Origin: Mesoplasma florum L1
GTDB lineage: Bacteria > Bacillota_I > Bacilli_A > Mycoplasmatales > Mycoplasmataceae
Direction: 5' to 3'
Assembly (NCBI RefSeq): GCF_000008305.1
Contig: NC_006055.1
Coordinates: 360,001-392,000, forward strand
DNA: 32,000 bases
Positions 4,183-17,202 of the stretch are shown one piece after another. The notes below the pieces were generated by a model that had not been told where the DNA came from, ran no database searches, and saw only the letters and a list, made by a program, of their open reading frames with translations. The translations under genes were made by a program, and so were the position numbers. Position 1 is the first letter of the stretch; the number at the start of each line of letters is the position of its first letter.

Positions 4183-5592
4183 ATGGAAATTAAAAAACTT
4201 AAAAAATTTGATGATGATTTTTTGTGAGGCGCTTCAATTTCTGCTTTTCAGGCAGAAGGTGCTTCAACAAAAGATGGTAAAGGTTTATCAATTCAAGATG
4301 TTAAAAAAATTAGTGAAAAATATTCTGATTTTTCAGTAGCTGCGGATTTCTATAATAATTACAAAGAGGATATTGCTTTGCTTAAAGAAATGGGATTGTC
4401 ATCTTTCAGATTTTCAATCTCTTGAACCCGTATTATTCCTGATGGAGATGGTGAAATAAATAAAAAAGGAATTATTTTTTATCATAACTTAATAGATGAG
4501 TTAAAGAAAAATGGGATTGAACCAATTGTTACAATATATCATTTTGACTTACCTTTTTCATTACAACAAAAAGGTGGCTGAAGTAATCGTGATATGATAG
4601 TAAAAGCTTTCTTAAAATATTCAAAAGTGTTATTTAATGAATATGCTAAAAAAGTTAAGTATTGGCTAACAATAAATGAACAAAATGTCATGATAATGAT
4701 AGGAAGCAAAATGAAGTTTTTAAATGGAGGAGATAAAAAATTCAATCAAAATGAGCTTTATAATCAATCTCATAATATGTTTATTGCGCAAGCATTAGTT
4801 ATGGAAGAGATGCATAATAATTTTCCTAATTGTTTAATAGCACCTGCTTTAAACATTGTTTCAATTTATCCCAATTCAAATAAACCTCAAGATTACTTAG
4901 CAGCAATGAATGCATCTGTTATGAGAAATTGATATTATTTAGATGCTATTGTTAGAGGCGAATATAACCCAATAATGTATAAATATTTAGAAGACAATAA
5001 TTTTTTACCTGATTTTAGAAAAGGTGATTATGAAATTCTAAAAAAAGCTAAGCCTGATTTTATAGCGTTTAACTATTATACTTCTGCAACAGTAAAAAGT
5101 GAAATTAATAATTTTATTGAAGTTGAAGAATTAATTGATCAACAAAGATTATTTGATGTGCCTGGTATGTTTAGTTATTGTGAAAATCCAAATTTAGAAA
5201 AAACTGAATATGGTTGAGATATTGATTCAACTGGTTTTAGGGTAACAATGAGGGAAATGTATGAAAGATATAGACTACCTTTAATGATTACTGAAAATGG
5301 ATTAGGACATTCAGAGCAATTAAACGAAAATAATACTGTAGATGATGATTATAGAATTCAATATTATGAAAAACATTTAAATGAATTAAGAAAATGTATT
5401 TCAGAAGGAATAAAAATTATCTCATATAATGCTTGAACAGCTATTGATATTGTTTCATCTCATCAAGGTTTTTCAAAAAGATACGGTTTTATTTATGTTG
5501 ATAGAACAGAAAAAGATTTGAAGGAAATGAAAAGATATCCCAAAAAAAGTTTTTATTGATATAAAGAATATATTAAAAAAATAAAATATTAA
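4183..5592 (+). CDS. bglA: GH1 6-phospho-beta-glucosidase (469 aa)
   Basis: ATG at 4183 follows a gagag RBS. The frame-1 pieces (including track ORFs 4594-4932, 4975-5217 and 5248-5436) join across TGA. GH1 signatures are [27 protein letters not shown], the acid/base motif YWLTINEQN and the nucleophile motif ITENGLG. TAA stop at 5590-5592. Confidence 0.9.
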
Positions 5593-5613
5593 TTTTTTAA
5601 TTCTAATTTTAAG

Positions 5614-5653
5614 TGTAGTACTTATGGCATGATTTCCTAAGTACTACATTTTT
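5614..5653 (+). terminator. Rho-independent terminator after the beta-glucoside operon
   Basis: Perfect 11-bp stem: tgtagtactta (5614-5624) pairs with taagtactaca (5638-5648). The loop is 13 nt and is followed by ttttt. Confidence 0.8.
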
Positions 5654-5693
5654 GTTTAAAAGTATGAGAAAATTAACAAAACATGGAGAACAA

Positions 5694-8411
5694 ATGAAAG
5701 AAAAACTATTTACAAATAAAGATGAACAAAAATTACTAGAAGAAATAAATAATGAAATATTAACTTCTAATGAAGTTTATTTAATTTATCCTTTTATATC
5801 TAAAAGTATCCTTAATAAAATAGCTCCAACTTTTGAATTCTGTGCAAAAAACAATATTCAAATTAAAATTATCTCAACAACATTTGATGATCTAGCTCAA
5901 TATAATAATTTGAATGAACTTAAACTATTAGCTGATAAGTATTCTAATATCAAAATAAAAATAGAAGATAACTTAGAAAGAACTAGTGAAAGAATTCATA
6001 TAAAAGCTTCAATTTTTAAACGAAATCATGAATTATCAACTGCAATTATGGGTTCTTCTAATTTAACTGTTAAGGGAATGATTTCTGGAAGAGAATGAAA
6101 TATTAAATTAACAGAACAAAATAATAAAGAATTAATTAATAAAATGATTAATGAATTTGATAATTTATGAAATGAAGAATTTGTTGATTTTTCAAATGAG
6201 TTTGAAAGAGAATTATTAATTCAAAAGATTAAAGAAAACCAGCAAGCAGTAGTTCAATCAAAAATAGAATTATTATCTAATAATTTAACTAAAAAATACT
6301 TATATAAATTTCAAAAAGAAATTATTGATAAACTAAGTTATCGAAGACATATTAATAAAAATAAAAACTTAGTCATTATGGCCACAGGAACAGGCAAAAC
6401 ACTAGTTTCTGCATTTGATTACAAAAGACAATCAGGACAAGCTAAAAAGGACCTTAAAATCCTATTTTTAGCACATCAAAGAGAAATAGTTGACCAAGCA
6501 ATCAAAACTTATCGCCATGTGCTTGAGAATAATAAATTTGGTGAAGTTATGTATGATGGAAGTATTAATAGTGAAAAACCAATTCACCTATTTGCAACAA
6601 TTCAAACCTTGTCCACAAGATTGAATAAATTCAAACCAAACGATTTTGACATTATTGTATATGATGAAGCTCATCATATAGCAGCAAATACTTTTGATAA
6701 AGTATTTAACTATTTTAAACCTCAACAAATCTTAGGTTTAACAGCAACTCCTGAAAGAGAAGACAATAAAGATATTAAAGCATATTTTGATGATGAATAT
6801 GCTACTGAATTAAGACTATGAGATGCTATTGATCAAAAACTATTATGTCCATTTGATTATTATTGTATAGATGATACTAATACTAATTTACAAGGAGTTA
6901 ATTTAAACTCTGATAAAGATATTTTTAAAGTAGTTAACACTGATTCTAGAAATGAATTGTTATTTAAAACAATTGAAAAATATTTAGGTGTTTATGCAAG
7001 ACCAACAGCATTAATCTTTTGTGTTACAGTAGAACATGCTATTAATATATCAAATTACTTAAACTCAAAGAATTTAAAAGCAGAAGTTTTAACTTCACAA
7101 AATACAAAAGATCGTAAAAGAATCTTACATGAATTTAGTACAGGAAGAATTAACTATTTATGTGTTGTTAATATTTTTAATGAAGGAGTAGATATTCCTG
7201 AAATTAATACTATTATTTTGTTAAGACCAACAAATTCTAAAACAGTATATTTACAACAACTTGGTAGAGGTTTAAGAAAAACAGAACTTAAAAATAAACT
7301 AGAAGTATATGATCTAATTTCTAATATAGATAATAAATATGATATTACTTTAGGAATTAGAAATTTATTTAATCCTGCTATTAGAAGTAGTAAGTCAATT
7401 AGTGCTAAAGAAGGTTTACCTTATAATTGCACAATTAACTTAGAAAAGCATACTGAAGAAATTATTATTAACAGTATGAAGAGTTGATATTTAAATAAAA
7501 ACTCAATGAAATCATATATTGTTGAATATTATGAAAGATTTAAAGAAAAAGCTCTTAATAATATATTGAAAGATTATGATTTAACTTTAATAGATTTTTA
7601 TAATAATTTAGATAACTTATTTATACCAATTGCTAAACAAATTAATAACTTTAATCAAAATGAAAATAACACTAATAGAAACAAAAACATTTTAAAACAG
7701 TTTTTATTCTTAAATAATCATAAAATTATTGATTACTTTTATAAAAGACTATCAAACCAATTATCAAGTAATGAAATTAACTTAGACTTAGATAATTTAT
7801 TAATTACTTCTTGTTTATATGAAATAACTAGTTTTGATAAATTTTTAGATATTTATCCTAACTATTTAAAAATTAATGATTTAGTAAAAAACTTTATTGA
7901 TGAGCATAAAGTGATTGTAGAAGAGTTAGTAATGATTCTTAAATACAAATTAGATAATGAAACTTTAATTTTTGAAAACGAGTATGAAATAGGATTGAAT
8001 ATAAATTCAACTTATACTGTAAAACAAGTTTTATCATTAGTTAATCGTACTAACTTTTTACATTATCGAACTGAAATGAAAGTTTTGACATTTCAAGCAG
8101 GGTTTTTAACTTTTGATAACTCAAAACAAATCATTTTAGCTGATGAAGACAGTGATAATTATGGTAAAAAAACTAAATATGATGAATTGAATAATATATT
8201 CTATTGATCTTTACCTGAAAAAATGACAATTAAAAATAAAATAGTTAGTGATTTTGAAAATGAATATATTAAAAAATACTTGTTTATTCAAGATCAACAA
8301 AACGTCAACAAAAAGAACTTATATTTAAAGCTTTATAAATTTGTAGGTATTGGTAAATTTGAAAAAATGTTAATTGATGATGTTCTTACAGCTAAATTTA
8401 AGTTAAAATAA
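5694..8411 (+). CDS. PLD-family (HKD) nuclease domain + SF2 (ResIII/DEAH) helicase + C-terminal DUF3427-like domain, single 905-aa protein
   Basis: Track ORFs 5652-6098, 6378-6821, 6957-7487, 7506-8207 and 8223-8411 share frame 0 and join across TGA; I checked the gaps for real stops. The PLD motif is HIKASIF...GSSNLT (5997-6062). Helicase motif I is MATGTGKT (6378-6401), motif II is DEAHH (6663-6677), motif III is GLTATPER and motif VI is QQLGRGLR. The C-terminus (FYWSLPEK...YLFIQDQ...YKFVGIG) matches my recollection of the DUF3427 pattern. I prefer the ATG at 5694 (ggaga RBS at 5685-5689) over the track's TTG at 5652, which lies inside the upstream terminator. The ATG at 5664 remains an alternative. 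Confidence 0.8.
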
Positions 8412-8443
8412 ACTAAATTAAAGTATTAAAGGCGGAAACAATA

Positions 8444-9466
8444 ATGGAAAATATAAATTACAAAAAAGCAAAGAAACAAATTAGAAAATATAAATATACT
8501 TTTTTAAAAGTTTTAGGAACAATTATCTTATTTCCTATAGTTTTTATTGTTAGTGCCATACTATCAAAATTCTTTACTCCATACTTATTCAAATATCCAA
8601 GGGCAGGTACTGATGAAAACGGACAAGAAGTAAATACTTTAAATCATTACTTAACAGATATAAAAGAAAAGAAACTAAAAAATTGAGAACTTACTAAAGA
8701 TCAAATTGAAGAATTTGAAATAGGGTCAAAAGAAGCAAGTATAAGTTGTTTAATCTTGAAAAATAATTCAAATAAATGAGTTGTTGCATTACACGGATTT
8801 AAAAGAAATAAGTATATGGGTGTTAGAAACGCTATTCAATTTTATAAAAAGGGATATAACGTAATATCATTTGATGCATATGCTCATGGTAAAACATATG
8901 GTAAATATTCTGATCTTGGAGTAACAAATTCAAAAGTTTTAAATGAAGTTATTAATTGAGTTAAAAATAATAATGATGTTGATGAGTTAGGTATTATTGG
9001 GGTAAGTATGGGAGCAGCTACAGCTGTTTATTGAGCACAACAATATTATCAAGTAAATAAAATCGATTGATTAATTTCAGATTGTGCTTTAACTCAACCA
9101 GTAGAACAAATTAGATTTTTCTTAAAAAAATACTTTAAGTGATTACCTTGATGAATTTCATCATTTAAAATTAATTGATTCTTCAAAAGATATTCAAAAA
9201 CTAATTTAAAAGATATGAATTTACAGAATAATTTAAATTCATTTAGAGATTTACCAGTTTTATTTATTCATGGTAAATTAGATTCATTTATTGATTATAA
9301 TAATTCAATAGTTATGTATTGTGAAAAAAGTAAAGATTCAAATAATAATAAAATTAAAATATTTGATGATTCAGAGCACAGCAGTTCAATAGTTGATCAT
9401 CAAGAAGAATATATATTAATAACAATTGATTTTGTAAGAGAAATAATGAGAAAAAATAAAAAGTAA
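8444..9466 (+). CDS. Membrane-anchored alpha/beta-fold hydrolase (340 aa)
   Basis: Track ORFs 8444-8686 and 9215-9466 are in frame 2 and are bridged by a TGA-rich stretch. The N-terminal TM helix is LKVLGTIILFPIVFIVSAILSKF. The nucleophile elbow is GVSMG, in the context HGFKRN...GIIGVSMGAATA. The C-terminal segment FIHGKLDSFI...DSEHS supplies candidate Asp and His residues. It starts 32 nt after the helicase gene with no terminator in between. Confidence 0.75.
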
Positions 9467-9468
9467 AT

Positions 9469-9489
9469 AAACACCAAATGGTGTTTTTT
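9469..9489 (+). terminator. Rho-independent terminator after the hydrolase gene
   Basis: The stem aaacacc (9469-9475) pairs with ggtgttt (9480-9486) around the loop aaat, and runs into a T-tract. Confidence 0.65.
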
Positions 9490-9533
9490 ATTTTAACTTT
9501 AAAGGAATTCAATTTAATCATAAAATAAGTATA

Positions 9534-10232
9534 ATGATATTAGAAATGAGGTTTTTTCAAATGGATCATGGTTATATATATTCTTACATTGAAAATAAAA
9601 TACTAAGTAATGAATTTAGTGCAGACCAAAAAATGCTTTCAGAAAATCAAATATGCATAAAATTTAATGTTTCAAGAACTTTAGCTAGAGATGTTTACAA
9701 GGAATTAGTAGTTGATGGTTATCTGTATAGTATTCATGGTAAGGGGTATTTTGTAAATGACAAAAAATACTGAATGAAAAATATAGGATTAGATAAAAAG
9801 TATCCTCATTCAGAATATAAAAATGAAATTCTTGACTTCAAAATTGAATTACCTAATTGATTTGTTGAAAATTATAAATTAAATAAAAATGATTATAATT
9901 GTTTTACAAAAGCAAGATATTTAAATAATAAACAAAGACATTTATCATATGTTTTTTTGAATAATAAACTAATTTTAAATATGGATCTTAAAGAAATAAA
10001 AAAATCAGTTGTTAATTATCTAAAAAAAGATTTTGAATTTAAAAAATCATATAATTTTATCAAAATAGAAAAAGCTACAAAATTTGATGCTGATTTTTTT
10101 AGTATTAATGAAAATGATTTTATTGTTTGTCAATATTCCGTAATTTATCATAATGATGAAATAGTATTGCAATGCTCATTAGATAAAAGACCAATTGAAT
10201 ATTTAAATTTTGGATACATAGCAAACGTTTAA
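9534..10232 (+). CDS. GntR-family (HutC/UTRA-type) transcriptional regulator
   Basis: Track ORFs 9534-9773 and 9957-10232 are in frame 0 and join across TGA. The GntR winged-helix signature is LSENQICIKFNVSRTLARDVYKELVVDGYLYSIHGKGYFV. The roughly 150-aa C-terminal effector domain has a length consistent with UTRA. The real start may be the ATG at 9561. Confidence 0.75.
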
Positions 10233-10297
10233 AATCTTGTTACTACAAGTTACACTCACTAAAACCAATTTTATAATAATAATGTGAGGTGACAAAA

Positions 10298-12556
10298 ATG
10301 TCTATAAGAGATAATATAACAAAAAAACAATATGCATATAATTGTGTAGAACATGAAAGAATTTTTTCTATTGAGTCAAACTATGCTATTGCATTAAGAT
10401 TAAGTGACGTTTGAGAAGAAGGCAATAAGCTTTATGTGGAAGTTACTTTTAATAATTTTCAAAAAGCTTATTTATCATTTGCTGAATATGAAAATGGAAT
10501 AGTTAATATAAGATATTGACAAAAACAAATCCCAGTAAATAGATATTATGATAAAAACCATGAAAACATGGTCACAACAAAAATAAAATATAAAAATGAT
10601 AAAAATGAAATAGTAATTTCATTAAAAAATGGTGAAAATATTATTATTACAAAAAATAAATTCCAATTAGCATTAGTAGACGTTAATGGTGAGATAAAAA
10701 CAAAAACTTCTTTAAGACCAGGATGAGATCATTTAGAAGGATATTGCACACCACCTTTAGGATTTAAAATTGATGATAATATTCAAAAGCCATTTATGAC
10801 AATGCAGTTAGCTAGTGAAGAGTTAATTTATGGGTTAGGTGAAAAATTTAACAATTTTGTTAAAAACGGTGTTCAATCAACTATTTTTAATGTAGATAAT
10901 GAAGCTGTTTCAAATGGTGATTATGCTTATTCAGGAGTACCTTTAGTATATTCTTCAAGAAATTGAGGATTACTATTAAATACAGCTCATAAAACAGAGT
11001 GAGAAATTGGTTCACCAACAACCGAAAGTTTATCGTTTATGTCTACAGAAGAATGTTTAGATATAATTTTATTTTCAGGAGATTCATTAAAAGATTTAGT
11101 TAAACAATATACTTTATTTACAGGTAGAATAACTGGTGTTCCAGATGAAGCCTATGGATTATGATTAAACAGACTTTATTATCATAATAAAAAAGAATTA
11201 TTTACTGAAATTGAAAATTCAATAAAAAATGAGTATCCAATAGATGTATTTACATTGGATCCAAAATGAATCAAAAATAGATATACAAAATCATGTAATT
11301 TTGAATTCAATGACGATCAATTTGGAGATTTAGAAACAATGCTTAGCGAAGTCCACGAAAAAGGATTTAAAATGTGTTTCTGAATAAACCCTTATTTACA
11401 AATAGATAACTCTGAAATGTGAAATGAAGTTTACGAAAAAGGTTATCATGTTAAAAAAGCTGATGGAAGTATTGCACATATTTGAAGTGGTTTTGGTAAT
11501 TACCAAGAAACAGCTTCAGCTATAGATTTAACAAATCCAGATGCTGTAGTATATTGAAAAAATAAAATAAAAGATTTAATGTACAAAGGTGTAGATTTTA
11601 TTAAAACTGATTATGGTGATAGTGTTGATGAAGACGCTGTAATGTTTAACGGTGAAAAAGGAACAAATTTTAAAAATGCTTATGCTGAATTATATCTAAG
11701 ATATGTTTATGAAGCAACTCAAGAAGTGAAAGGTATAGATAAAGGTTTCTGTTTATCAAGACCTGGATATATTGGAACACAAAAATATGTTGGAAAATGA
11801 GCTGGAGATTCAGCATCAAGTTTTAATGAACTAAAAATGCAATTACTTTCTGGTTTATCAAATTCACTTTGTGGAACAGTAATGTGAGGAACTGATATAG
11901 GTGGCTTTTTAGATATTAACGCTAATGAAGAAGACTTGTATGCAAGATGATCACAATTTGGTTTATTGACACCTTTTTCAAGATACCATGGTGTTGGAGC
12001 AAGAGAACCTTGATATTTTGGAGAAAAAGACTTAAATATTTCTAGAGAAGCCGCTAAATTAAAAAGACAATTACTTCCTTACTATAAAATCTATGAAAAA
12101 GAAGCTATTGAATCAGGATTACCAATAATAAGACCTTTAGTTCTTGAATTCCCTAATGATACAATTGCTGCTAAAATAGATGATCAATTTATGTTGGGTG
12201 AAAATATTATGGTTGCTCCTATTTTAAGTAATAAAAAATATGAAAGACAAGTTTATTTCCCTGAAGGAAACTGAATTGATTTTTCAGATAAAAAAATTTA
12301 TGAAGGTAACAAAAAATATAATATTGATTGTCCAATTGAAAAAATACTAATCTTTGTTAAAGAAAATTCAATTATACCTATGATTAAAAATCCTATGTAT
12401 AAATTTAACAATATAGATAATGAAAAAATTAAATTAAGAATCTATGGAAATGTTTTAAATGAAACATTAAAATTTAGAATAAATGACAAAGACTACTCTG
12501 TTGAAGTGAGAGACAACAAAATAGTTAATGAAAATGAAAAATTCGAAGTAGAATAA
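10298..12556 (+). CDS. GH31 alpha-glucosidase / alpha-xylosidase family protein (752 aa)
   Basis: ATG at 10298 follows the RBS gtgaggtg. The long frame-2 ORF is interrupted only by TGA; only one piece (11579-11800) appears in the track. GH31 signatures are FWINPY, the nucleophile region GVDFIKTDYGD, and KWAGDSASSF...MWGTDIGGF. TAA stop at 12554-12556. Confidence 0.85.
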
Positions 12557-15794: not shown

Positions 15795-15816
15795 AAAATA
15801 AAAAATGGAGGAATAT

Positions 15817-16365
15817 ATGAATAAAAAAGTTTTTATTTCTTATTGGCATTCTGGTCATCAAATACAAAAAGATGAATTAGAAAAAACAGTAAGAGCTTCT
15901 AGAAATATAAATAATTCTGTTCACATTGGAGATATTAATGAAAATCTACCAACTGAAAGAATTTATCAAATAATAAGAGATGATTATTTAAAAGATAGTC
16001 AGGTAACAATTGTTCTTCTAGGTTTACATACAAATCACCGTAAGCATATAGATAGAGAAATTGCTTCATCTATTAGAGAAACATTTTTAAATCCAAGAAA
16101 TGGGCTTGTTATTCTTGTTATGCCTGAGATGGTGCCTTATGTTTCAGCAGGGACATGAAATAGTGAAAGAATATGTGGACCCAGAATTTCAAAAAATATA
16201 AAAAATAACTATGCAGTTTTTGATTATTATCACAACGTAATTAATAACCCTTCAAAATTAAACGAATTAATTGAAAAAGCTTATTTAAATAGAAATAATG
16301 TACTACCCAATAATTCTGATCCTTACAGAAGTAACAATACAAGCTGTACAATATGTGGGAGATAA
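15817..16365 (+). CDS. TIR-like domain protein, ThsB/DUF1863-like (182 aa)
   Basis: ATG at 15817 lies 5 nt after the ggagg RBS; the track start at 15805 overlaps the RBS. One in-frame TGA at 16156. The N-terminal strand KKVFISYWH and the core SQVTIVLLGLHTNHRKHIDREIASSI match the pattern xVFISY...VTxVLIGxxTxxRxWVxYEIxxSI that I recall for DUF1863/ThsB TIR-like proteins. This includes a Glu (E81, nt 16057-16059) at the position of the catalytic glutamate. TAA stop at 16363-16365. Confidence 0.7.
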
Positions 16366-16368
16366 AAG

Positions 16369-17202
16369 ATGAAAATAGAGATTAATAATTTATGATATTT
16401 AGTAATAATTTTAATTATTATATTATTTTTTATTTTTATTCCTTTAATAATAAAAAGTATTAAACTAAAATTAAAAAATAATAAAAACTTAAAACAAACT
16501 AAACAATCATTTAAAAATCTTTTAGATAATAAAGATTTAAGTTTAAATAATAAAATCTTTTTTAAAAGAGAAGATAAAAAATTAAATTTACATCTTAAAG
16601 AACTTATTGGTTCAAGTTCACTTTCAAGTTCAGTTAAAACAAATTTAGATTTTAAAATAGTTACATTTGAGATTCAATCAAATTTACCTGAAAAAATAAA
16701 TAATAGACAAATTTCTTGAAAAGCATTCACAGCGATTATAACTTCTGTTATAACAAATGATTCAAGAGGCGATACTGCAGAAGCAGTTAATTCAATTTAT
16801 CAATTATTTAAATTTTTAAAAAAACTTGTAATTGAAAGTGAGAATTCACCAATCATTCCATCAATGTTACTAAAAATAATAAATACAGATTTAAGGCCAA
16901 TATTAACTTTTACAAGAAGTTTTATGTTTTCTGATGCAGAAGGAAAAAATAAAGTTAAAAAAGATTTTGAAAACCAAGAAGAACAATTTTGAAATAAAAT
17001 TAATGATTTAAAAATTACTTTATTAGAGAGAAATGATTTAAAAATTTTATGTTTATTTTCTCAAAATTACATAACAACTGATGAAATTTATAATTTACTA
17101 AATATTAGCGATGAGTTGAAAAAGCAACTTATGTCTAAAAATAAAGAATCAAAAAAAATTATAGACGAAGTTGAAAAAGAAATAAAAAATTCAAAAATTT
17201 AA
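16369..17202 (+). CDS. Single-pass membrane protein of unknown function (277 aa), probably translationally coupled to the TIR-like gene; absent from the supplied ORF track
   Basis: ATG at 16369 lies 3 nt after the TIR stop. Frame 1 stays open to the TAA at 17200-17202, with three in-frame TGA codons (16393, 16717, 16990). The N-terminal TM helix is WYLVIILIIILFFIFIPLII, followed by a K-rich juxtamembrane stretch. The C-terminal region of about 240 aa contains no motif I recognise, including SIR2, Macro or SLOG signatures. A terminator follows immediately. Confidence 0.65.

What the first reader, a model, noticed from the sequence alone, without database searches (positions are those of the whole stretch)
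5694..9489. Terminator-bounded PLD-nuclease/SF2-helicase/DUF3427 giant gene plus membrane alpha/beta-hydrolase wedged between two sugar loci
A 905-aa single polypeptide combines three parts:
- An HKD phospholipase-D-type nuclease domain (HIKAS...GSSN).
- A complete ResIII/DEAH helicase core.
- A DUF3427-like C-terminus.

This nuclease-helicase logic is typical of restriction-like or anti-phage single-gene systems, but as far as I know this exact architecture has no assigned function. It is followed after 32 nt, with no terminator, by a TM-anchored serine hydrolase. The pair is insulated by terminators at 5614-5653 and 9469-9489. It splits two functionally similar regulator/PTS/glycosidase modules, which looks like an accessory insertion.
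Basis: partly seen in the sequence, partly recalled or inferred. Interest (0 to 1): 0.6.

Follow-up and report, generated by a model that had tools for sequence, protein, structure and literature searches.

The report
SauUSI-family restriction enzyme in Mesoplasma
The 905-aa gene is a Mesoplasma florum member of the known SauUSI family of ATP-driven enzymes that cut foreign DNA carrying modified cytosine; it has an unusually diverged DNA-reading end, and the hydrolase next to it is an unrelated neighbour.

Summary
The gene at 5694-8411 is real. It is mfl314 of Mesoplasma florum L1, read with TGA=Trp. It has the four-part layout of SauUSI, the characterised Type IV restriction enzyme of S. aureus (PDB 7CLG):
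- a PLD nuclease (HxK, GSSN);
- an SF2 ATPase with every motif intact;
- a helical coupler;
- a C-terminal beta-rich domain.

Sequence matches to SauUSI (E 1e-72; family profile 4e-101) and to PADLOC mREase_IV (2e-101) cover the first 620-640 residues. The C-terminus matches neither Pfam DUF3427 nor anything outside Mesoplasma/Spiroplasma among 1.84 billion proteins. Modelled alone, its best PDB matches are SRA-type modified-cytosine readers, SauUSI's own included.

The "accessory insertion" reading is reversed: in all six genus relatives the gene sits between parC and recD2, and the sugar modules are the variable cargo. The two-gene idea fails:
- the hydrolase has its own promoter;
- it lies 150-330 kb away in other genera;
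- it is a pseudogene beside an intact nuclease in one species.

The modification and sequence context recognised are unknown. The host has two C5-methyltransferases, and removing Dcm methylation did not help transformation. This scan has found SauUSI-family genes on other DNA before.

The parts
5611..5651 (+). Hairpin plus U-run; terminator of the upstream GH1 gene (mfl313)
   Evidence: dG -17.4 kcal/mol, z -4.45, 0 of 200 shuffles as good. The 13-nt loop explains why the consensus scan missed it.
5668..5677 (+). Weak promoter (-10 GAAAAT) and mapped transcription start of mfl314 (genome 365676/7)
   Evidence: Published TSS table of Matteau et al. 2020, PMC7745072 supplement. The TSS lies downstream of the alternative in-frame ATG at 5664, which supports ATG 5694 as the start.
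5694..8411 (+). mfl314: 905-aa SauUSI-family Type IV restriction endonuclease (code 4)
   Evidence: Published annotation 365694-368411, 'DNA/RNA helicase'.
5694..6188 (+). PLD-family nuclease domain (aa 1-165); HxK at H102/K104 (nt 5997-6011), GSSN at 120-123 (nt 6051-6062)
   Evidence: Pfam PLDc_2 4.1e-08 and RE_NgoFVII 3.1e-08. H102/K104 align to SauUSI H119/K121, and GSSN to SauUSI S142/N143. Invariant in the family.
6300..7373 (+). SF2 helicase-like ATPase (aa 203-560): Walker A 6381-6401, DEAH 6663-6674, motif III 6741-6752, motif VI 7254-7277
   Evidence: ResIII 1.9e-35, Helicase_C 2.2e-15. Motifs invariant in 27 orthologues. Coordinates.
7446..7958 (+). All-helical coupler region (aa ~585-755)
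   Evidence: AF2 model: helices, pLDDT 76-96. It occupies the place of the SauUSI coupler, 618-805. The full-length Foldseek alignment to 7CLG spans ~929 columns.
7962..8408 (+). SRA-like target-recognition domain (aa ~757-905); a sequence orphan outside Mesoplasma/Spiroplasma
   Evidence: Domain-only model (pTM 0.71): the top 16 PDB hits are all SRA-type modified-cytosine readers, including SauUSI at TMq 0.55. No Pfam hit. No PDB sequence hit. Only clade members among 1.84 billion proteins.
8404..8415 (+). Own promoter (-10 TAAAAT, overlapping the mfl314 stop codon) and transcription start of the hydrolase gene
   Evidence: Published TSS 368414/5 and TU_175.
8444..9466 (+). mfl315: membrane-anchored alpha/beta-fold serine hydrolase. 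A neighbour, not part of the system.
   Evidence: Abhydrolase_1 1.8e-16, no PADLOC hit. TM segment aa 20-44, GVSMG 186-190. Core gene in 13 M. florum strains whereas mfl314 is non-core. Unlinked outside the genus.
9469..9486 (+). Intrinsic terminator that ends both transcripts (TU_174, TU_175)
   Evidence: Consensus scan. Published terminator 369470-369484.

Best explanation
mfl314 encodes a stand-alone Type IV (modification-dependent) restriction endonuclease of the SauUSI family.

Inferred mechanism, by analogy with SauUSI:
1. The protein dimerises through its PLD domains, so that the two HxK motifs form one active site.
2. The C-terminal SRA-like domain flips a modified cytosine of incoming DNA into an aromatic pocket.
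3. This signal passes through the helical coupler and switches on the SF2 ATPase.
4. The enzyme translocates along the DNA, and the PLD site cuts it.

Inferred: modification dependence, ATP dependence, dimerisation, and which modified base and sequence context are read.
For: - PDB 7CLG (SauUSI) is by far the best sequence match: 1.3e-72, or 4e-101 with the family profile. The next best, RadD, scores 5e-18 to 1.8e-29.
- PADLOC mREase_IV scores 1.9e-101.
- The full-length model's best structural match is 7CLG at 2e-35, aligned over ~929 columns.
- The C-terminal domain modelled alone matches AbaSI, PvuRts1I, SauUSI, LpnPI, SUVH6, MspJI, KRYPTONITE, TagI and then UHRF1. All are flipped-modified-cytosine readers. 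TMq is ~0.5 and probability 0.93-1.0.
- Catalytic and ATPase motifs are invariant in 27 orthologues, and so are many reader-domain residues, including W838.
- In two independent weak but co-linear alignments, W838, F804, I814 and L815 fall on SauUSI's pocket residues W868, Y831, F841 and I842.
- No homologue of either host C5 methyltransferase lies within +-10 kb in about 30 loci. SauUSI also lacks a companion methylase.
- The nearest non-Mollicute relatives are canonical PLD-helicase-DUF3427 proteins.
- The gene is transcribed and tolerates transposon insertion.
Against: - Pfam DUF3427 does not match. hhalign against canonical DUF3427 regions gives only 6% probability. Reader homology therefore rests on a predicted fold of moderate confidence (pLDDT 71; Foldseek E 3e-4 to 1e-2).
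- The base-reading Asp of SauUSI (D858) has no strictly conserved counterpart: the acid is shifted by one position and varies in the family.
- The host carries two C5-methyltransferase genes, so it probably has 5mC of its own.
- Plasmid prepared in a dam-/dcm- E. coli strain transformed M. florum no better than methylated plasmid (bioRxiv 10.64898/2026.09.29.755066). Dcm sites fit the published SauUSI motif S5mCNGS (my reading of the motif).
- RNA level is low (55, against 380 for the neighbour), and the protein's quantification columns read 0 in the published proteomics table; I did not check that table's headers.
- There is no biochemical test of this protein or of any Mollicute orthologue.
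Confidence: 0.75

Rival explanations
1. It is the restriction arm of a classical R-M arrangement. The enzyme attacks unmethylated sites, and one of the chromosome's C5 methyltransferases, 10-17 kb upstream, protects the host (a fused NgoAVII/CglI-like ATP-dependent system).
For: - The N-terminal domain also matches Pfam RE_NgoFVII.
- Two C5 methyltransferases lie nearby in the genome.
- A second, more distant class of PLD-helicase genes in relatives sits directly upstream of a C5 methyltransferase.
Against: - No methyltransferase homologue lies within +-10 kb of the orthologue in about 30 loci.
- Each of the two host methyltransferases already has its own nuclease neighbour: GmrSD-like and Sau3AI/MutH-like.
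- The reader domain matches SRA-type modified-base readers. No B3-type domain of BfiI/NgoAVII appears among the Foldseek hits.
- The second-copy class has an unrelated C-terminus.
Confidence: 0.08
2. It is a housekeeping repair or recombination nuclease-helicase (RadD/XPB-like), kept in the parC-recD2 neighbourhood for chromosome maintenance rather than defence.
For: - It holds a fixed syntenic position in 6/6 genus relatives and occurs widely in the family.
- RadD and XPB are the next-best helicase matches.
- No mobile-element genes lie beside it.
Against: - The SauUSI match is 50-70 orders of magnitude better than RadD and includes the PLD nuclease.
- The C-terminal domain has an SRA-like reader fold.
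- The gene is non-core among 13 M. florum strains, tolerates transposons and is absent from JCVI-syn3.0.
- It is broken in several endosymbiont Spiroplasma.
- The surrounding ~40 kb is rich in defence genes.
Confidence: 0.07
3. It is a two-gene system in which the membrane alpha/beta hydrolase mfl315 acts with the nuclease-helicase.
For: - The gap is 32 nt with no terminator between the genes.
- A read-through transcript, TU_174, covers both genes.
- The genes are adjacent in 4 of 6 genus relatives.
Against: - The hydrolase has its own TSS and about 7x the RNA level.
- About 6 kb of unrelated cargo separates the two genes in G001 and in M. grammopterae.
- It is absent from +-8-10 kb in about 22 Spiroplasma and M. 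seiffertii loci.
- Its orthologues lie 149 and 330 kb from the nuclease in G013 and G019, and it is a pseudogene (11 TAA) beside an intact nuclease in G005.
- The two genes fall in different conservation classes, core versus non-core.
- It has no PADLOC hit.
Confidence: 0.03

Closest known systems
SauUSI of Staphylococcus aureus (Type IV restriction enzyme; PDB 7CLG; PMC3141236, PMC7913695)
   Same: - One polypeptide with the same domain order: PLD nuclease, SF2 ATPase, helical coupler, SRA-fold reader.
- The catalytic HxK and GSSN and all ATPase motifs align.
- The best sequence match (1e-72; profile 4e-101) and the best structure match (2e-35).
- No adjacent methyltransferase.
   Different: - Residues 620-905 have no significant sequence similarity to SauUSI, and Pfam DUF3427 does not match.
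- The base-reading Asp is not conserved in place.
- It is 48 aa shorter.
- The host probably carries 5mC itself.
- No sign of Dcm-site restriction in published transformation tests.
- Untested biochemically.
Canonical PLD-helicase-DUF3427 proteins (e.g. in Rothia, Clostridiaceae and Kiritimatiellaeota genomes; PADLOC mREase_IV)
   Same: 32-35% identity over the nuclease and ATPase, and the same architecture and length class. The PADLOC mREase_IV profile matches aa 5-636 at 1.9e-101.
   Different: Those proteins score 5e-19 to 5e-86 on PF11907. The Mollicute clade scores nothing. Its reader-domain profile finds only clade members among 1.84 billion proteins.
SRA-type readers of AbaSI/PvuRts1I (5hmC/glucosyl-5hmC), MspJI/LpnPI (5mC) and UHRF1/SUVH (5mC)
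   Same: These are the best fold matches of the C-terminal domain modelled alone, with TMq 0.4-0.55.
   Different: Sequence identity is 8-18%. The attached nucleases differ (Vsr-like or PD-(D/E)XK, without an ATPase). Which modification the Mesoplasma domain prefers cannot be read from the fold.
NgoAVII / CglI ATP-dependent R-M systems (PLD-B3 R subunit plus SF2 H subunit plus C5 methyltransferase)
   Same: A PLD nuclease of the same Pfam family (RE_NgoFVII hit) working with an SF2 ATPase.
   Different: Those are separate R and H subunits with a B3 reader and a cognate methyltransferase.

Membership tests
SauUSI family (Type IV ATP-dependent restriction endonucleases) | N-terminal PLD-family nuclease with catalytic HxK and GSSN | tested here: met
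   H102/K104 and G120-N123 align to SauUSI H119/K121 and S142/N143. They are invariant in 27 orthologues.
SauUSI family (Type IV ATP-dependent restriction endonucleases) | Central SF2 helicase-like ATPase with intact motifs I, II, III and VI | tested here: met
   ResIII 1.9e-35 and Helicase_C 2.2e-15. ATGTGKT, DEAH, TATP and QQLGRGLR are invariant.
   The model is all-helical over aa ~585-755 at pLDDT 76-96. The sequence alignment to 7CLG runs into the first coupler helices, to residues 617/631. The Foldseek alignment spans the whole chain.
SauUSI family (Type IV ATP-dependent restriction endonucleases) | C-terminal SRA-fold target-recognition domain | tested here: met
   Domain-only model: the top 16 PDB matches are all SRA-type readers, including 7CLG itself (E 1.4e-3, TMq 0.55). 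This is fold-level evidence from a model of pLDDT 71 and pTM 0.71.
SauUSI family (Type IV ATP-dependent restriction endonucleases) | No cognate methyltransferase next to the gene | tested here: met
   No homologue of either host C5 methyltransferase lies within +-8-10 kb in about 30 orthologue loci. The window's neighbours are sugar genes and a hydrolase. N6/N4 methyltransferases were not searched for.
SauUSI family (Type IV ATP-dependent restriction endonucleases) | ATP-dependent cleavage of DNA only when it carries 5mC/5hmC | not testable with these tools
   Needs biochemistry. The one relevant published observation is negative: dam-/dcm- plasmid gave no better transformation.
Pfam DUF3427 (PF11907) | Match to the family HMM above its gathering score (27.7 bits) | tested here: not met
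   - No hit at E<=0.1 on the whole protein, nor at E<=10 on aa 601-905 or 751-905.
- None of 59 orthologues carries a precomputed PF11907 hit.
- Positive control: Rothia, Clostridiaceae and Kiritimatiellaeota relatives score 5e-19 to 5e-86.
- hhalign against those regions gives probability 6%, E 0.006, co-linear over 112 columns.
NgoAVII/CglI-type ATP-dependent R-M | B3-like DNA-binding domain on the PLD subunit, a separate helicase subunit, and an adjacent C5 methyltransferase | tested here: not met
   Single fused polypeptide. The listed Foldseek hits show SRA-type folds and no B3 domain. No linked methyltransferase.
   Adjacent in only 4 of 6 genus relatives. Unlinked in all other genera examined. 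Pseudogene in G005.

The most novel reading that the evidence does not exclude
The clade-specific reader domain has been retuned. It may read a cytosine modification or sequence context different from SauUSI's S5mCNGS, for example 5hmC or a hypermodified cytosine of phage DNA, or 5mC in a context the host never makes. That would let a Type IV enzyme coexist with the host's own two C5 methyltransferases. Mesoplasma and Spiroplasma would then hold a new specificity class of SauUSI-type enzymes.
Probability: 0.3. Interest if true: 0.45.

Novelty: new member of a known kind. Interest (0 to 1): 0.25.

Why it matters
Mesoplasma florum is being developed as a near-minimal chassis for synthetic genomics, where low transformation and genome-transplantation efficiency is a practical bottleneck. 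mfl314 is still annotated only as "DNA/RNA helicase", with unknown function, in the published resources for this organism. Recognising it as a SauUSI-type restriction enzyme points to one concrete, dispensable gene to delete or to evade. It sits among several other defence genes in the same ~40 kb: a methyltransferase with a GmrSD-like nuclease, a Sau3AI-like R-M pair, and a Thoeris-like TIR cassette. Beyond that it is an ordinary member of a well-characterised family. The only biological twist is a reader domain that has diverged past sequence recognition, in a host that probably methylates its own cytosines.

Tried and rejected
- Pfam on the isolated C-terminus at E<=10 found nothing.
- The C-terminal profile against PDB sequences at E<=10 found nothing.
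- The exhaustive profile search of 1.84 billion representatives found only clade members and fragments. The three marginal long hits are MBG and Ig repeat proteins and are spurious.
- hhalign against canonical DUF3427 regions was co-linear but gave 6% probability. I treat it as inconclusive.
- Second-copy PLD-helicase genes in relatives were tried as a bridge to DUF3427. They have no PF11907 hit either, and their C-termini are unrelated to this one.
- The 'accessory insertion' reading is rejected on synteny.
- The hydrolase partnership is rejected.
- A B3-type reader is rejected by the fold search.
- Literature searches for a SauUSI-like enzyme, a Type IV system or a methylome in Mesoplasma or Spiroplasma found nothing relevant.
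- I tried to find which of the 13 M. florum strains lack mfl314 in Data Set S3 of PMC5893858. The text held did not resolve this.
Full report
**What is there.**
- The window uses genetic code 4. Long frames open only when TGA is read as Trp, and GC content is about 25%.
- The window is positions 360001-392000 of a single 793,224-bp contig. [quoted passage not shown]
- The ATG at window 5694 gives a 905-aa protein with five in-frame TGA codons.
- A published transcription start at genome 365676 lies downstream of the other in-frame ATG (window 5664). This supports 5694 as the start.

**Domains and motifs.**
- Pfam finds a PLD nuclease (PLDc_2 and RE_NgoFVII, aa 18-159), ResIII (203-355) and Helicase_C (427-528).
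- HIKAS (102-106), GSSN (120-123), Walker A (230-236), DEAH (324-327), TATP (350-353) and QQLGRGLR (521-528) are present. All are invariant in 27 orthologues that are 50-94% identical to it. So the nuclease and the motor look catalytically competent.

**It is a known architecture.**
- PADLOC's "Type IV methyl-directed restriction enzyme" model matches aa 5-636 at 1.9e-101.
- The best solved-structure match is 7CLG at 1.3e-72, or 4e-101 with the family profile. The next best, RadD, is 50-70 orders of magnitude weaker.
- The PDB sequence file calls 7CLG "Putative helicase". The structure library labels it "ATP-dependent restriction endonuclease SauUSI".
- The literature describes SauUSI as one polypeptide with a PLD nuclease, an SF2 ATPase, an alpha-helical coupler (618-805) and an SRA-fold target-recognition domain (806-953, the region earlier called DUF3427). 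It cuts DNA carrying S5mCNGS or the 5hmC equivalent, needs ATP, and has no companion methylase (PMC3141236, PMC7913695).
- Earlier notes of this scan report SauUSI-family genes in several other genomes.

**The C-terminal third is the one unusual part.**
- *No sequence match.* Pfam DUF3427 gives no hit on the whole protein or on the isolated C-terminus even at E<=10. None of 59 orthologues carries a precomputed PF11907 hit. The model itself works on this architecture: the nearest non-Mollicute relatives (Rothia, a Clostridiaceae MAG, a Kiritimatiellaeota MAG; 32-35% identical over nuclease and ATPase) score 5e-19 to 5e-86 on PF11907.
- *No distant sequence relatives.* A profile of the last 155 residues finds nothing in PDB sequences. 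In 1.84 billion representative proteins it finds only Spiroplasma family members, fragments and three spurious repeat proteins. hhalign against canonical DUF3427 regions gives only 6% probability.
- *The fold does match.* In the full-length AlphaFold model the last 300 residues are confident (pLDDT 76-96). They form a helical block (~585-755) followed by a beta-rich domain (~757-905). Foldseek aligns the whole chain to 7CLG (2e-35, ~929 columns). The TM-score is low, which suggests the domains are arranged differently.
- *The domain alone matches modified-cytosine readers.* Modelled on its own (pTM 0.71), its best PDB matches are AbaSI, PvuRts1I, SauUSI, LpnPI, SUVH6, MspJI, KRYPTONITE and TagI, followed by UHRF1. 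All are SRA-type readers that flip a modified cytosine. TMq is about 0.5. No B3-type (BfiI/NgoAVII) domain appears among the listed hits.
- *Pocket residues (inference only).* Two independent weak but co-linear alignments place the invariant W838 on SauUSI's stacking W868. They place F804, I814 and L815 on the pocket residues Y831, F841 and I842. The base-reading D858 has no fixed counterpart; an acid one position earlier is common but not invariant.
It has diverged beyond sequence recognition, so its exact specificity may differ.

- All six same-genus genomes carry an orthologue (84-95% identical) at a similar chromosomal coordinate, and 15 of 23 same-family genomes have a match.
- The conserved order in the genus is parC ... 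mfl314 ... mfl315 ... orf184 ... recD2 (orf743 has RecD2-type domains).
- The content between these anchors changes from species to species:
  - the RpiR/PTS/GH1 and GntR/GH31/PTS modules here;
  - a KAP NTPase and an ascorbate-type PTS/epimerase/transketolase module in M. grammopterae;
  - DUF285 proteins in G001.
- So the sugar modules are the inserted cargo, and the nuclease gene is part of the older scaffold.
- At species level the published pangenome still scores mfl314 as non-core among 13 strains, transposon-tolerant and absent from JCVI-syn3.0. mfl315 is core.
- Copies are broken in some endosymbiotic Spiroplasma.
- Widely inherited, dispensable and occasionally lost: this pattern fits a defence gene.

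**The hydrolase is not a partner.**
- Published transcript maps show a read-through unit covering both genes. They also show a separate, stronger start for mfl315 at window 8414, whose -10 box overlaps the mfl314 stop codon. RNA levels are 380 for mfl315 against 55 for mfl314.
- The two genes are split by about 6 kb in two genus relatives.
- No hydrolase homologue lies within +-8-10 kb of the orthologue in about 22 Spiroplasma and M. seiffertii loci.
- The hydrolase orthologues of G013 and G019 lie 149 and 330 kb from the nuclease gene. In G005 the hydrolase is a pseudogene with 11 in-frame TAA stops beside an intact nuclease gene.
- It has no PADLOC hit.

**Self versus non-self.**
- No homologue of either host C5 methyltransferase lies near the orthologue in any locus examined. 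This fits a Type IV enzyme.
- The chromosome does encode two C5 methyltransferases 10-17 kb upstream of the gene. One is followed by a GmrSD-like nuclease. The other is divergent from a MutH/Sau3AI-like nuclease, directly before parE-parC.
- From general knowledge, if the second pair has Sau3AI-type specificity (GAT5mC), the T before the methylated C would already exclude SauUSI's S5mCNGS. This is an inference, not a test.
- A 2026 preprint reports that plasmid from a dam-/dcm- E. coli strain transformed M. florum no better than methylated plasmid. Dcm sites fit SauUSI's motif. So either this enzyme has a different specificity, or it is too weakly expressed to matter under those conditions, or other barriers dominate.
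- In the published proteomics table the quantification columns for mfl314 read 0. I did not verify that table's headers.

**Rivals.**
- A classical R-M arm protected by a host methyltransferase is unlikely (0.08).
- The two-gene system with the hydrolase is rejected (0.03).

**Verdict.** This is a real gene. Its parts were described accurately, except that the C-terminus is DUF3427-like only by fold. It is a new, diverged member of a well-characterised family of Type IV restriction enzymes. Automated defence annotation already recognises it, so novelty and interest are low to moderate. The remaining open question is what modification and sequence context the clade-specific reader recognises in a host that probably methylates its own cytosines.

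Noticed in passing
window 15805-17202: The 186-aa protein at 15805-16365 matches Pfam ThsB_TIR (3.8e-17). A 277-aa ORF with no Pfam hit follows 3 nt later.
   Followed up: partly
L112 (genome 344001-360000): 4849-8752 and 9411-12061: Just upstream of the window there are two further restriction-type units. One is a C5 methyltransferase followed by a GmrSD_N/GmrSD_C nuclease. The other is a MutH/Sau3AI-like nuclease divergent from a second C5 methyltransferase that ends directly before parE-parC. Together with mfl314 and the TIR cassette, this makes about 40 kb of defence-rich chromosome.
   Followed up: partly
L106:1002-5200, L110:1237-5199 (also L107-L109, L111): Several relatives carry a second, distant PLD-helicase gene (32-38% identical, 930-1040 aa, no DUF3427 hit, C-terminus unrelated to mfl314's). 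In M. grammopterae and G024 a C5 methyltransferase follows it directly. The M. grammopterae methyltransferase is 68% identical to the L1 enzyme that sits beside GmrSD. A SauUSI-like nuclease paired with a methyltransferase is unexpected for a Type IV enzyme. The own genome lacks this second copy.
   Followed up: partly
G005:C1:425743-426515 (L020:11357-12001): The hydrolase orthologue next to the intact nuclease gene is a pseudogene in this species (11 in-frame TAA stops).
   Followed up: no
L041, L044; G033:C1:723606-726312: The mfl314 orthologue is interrupted by stops or frameshifts in some Spiroplasma, including S. ixodetis sAp269 and the endosymbiont of Nebria riversi.
   Followed up: no
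protein P0061 (538 aa): A 'hypothetical protein' deposited under the firefly Lamprigera yunnana matches the clade-specific C-terminal domain (E 1e-20). This probably reflects Spiroplasma DNA in the insect assembly.
   Followed up: no
window 8404-8415: The mapped -10 box of the hydrolase promoter (TAAAAT) overlaps the stop codon of mfl314. The 3' end of the nuclease gene therefore doubles as the neighbour's promoter.
   Followed up: no
L021:6925-8580 (M. grammopterae): A 551-aa KAP-family P-loop NTPase occupies the parC-to-nuclease gap in M. grammopterae, where L1 has the RpiR/PTS/GH1 module. This is another sign that the interval is an integration hotspot.
   Followed up: no
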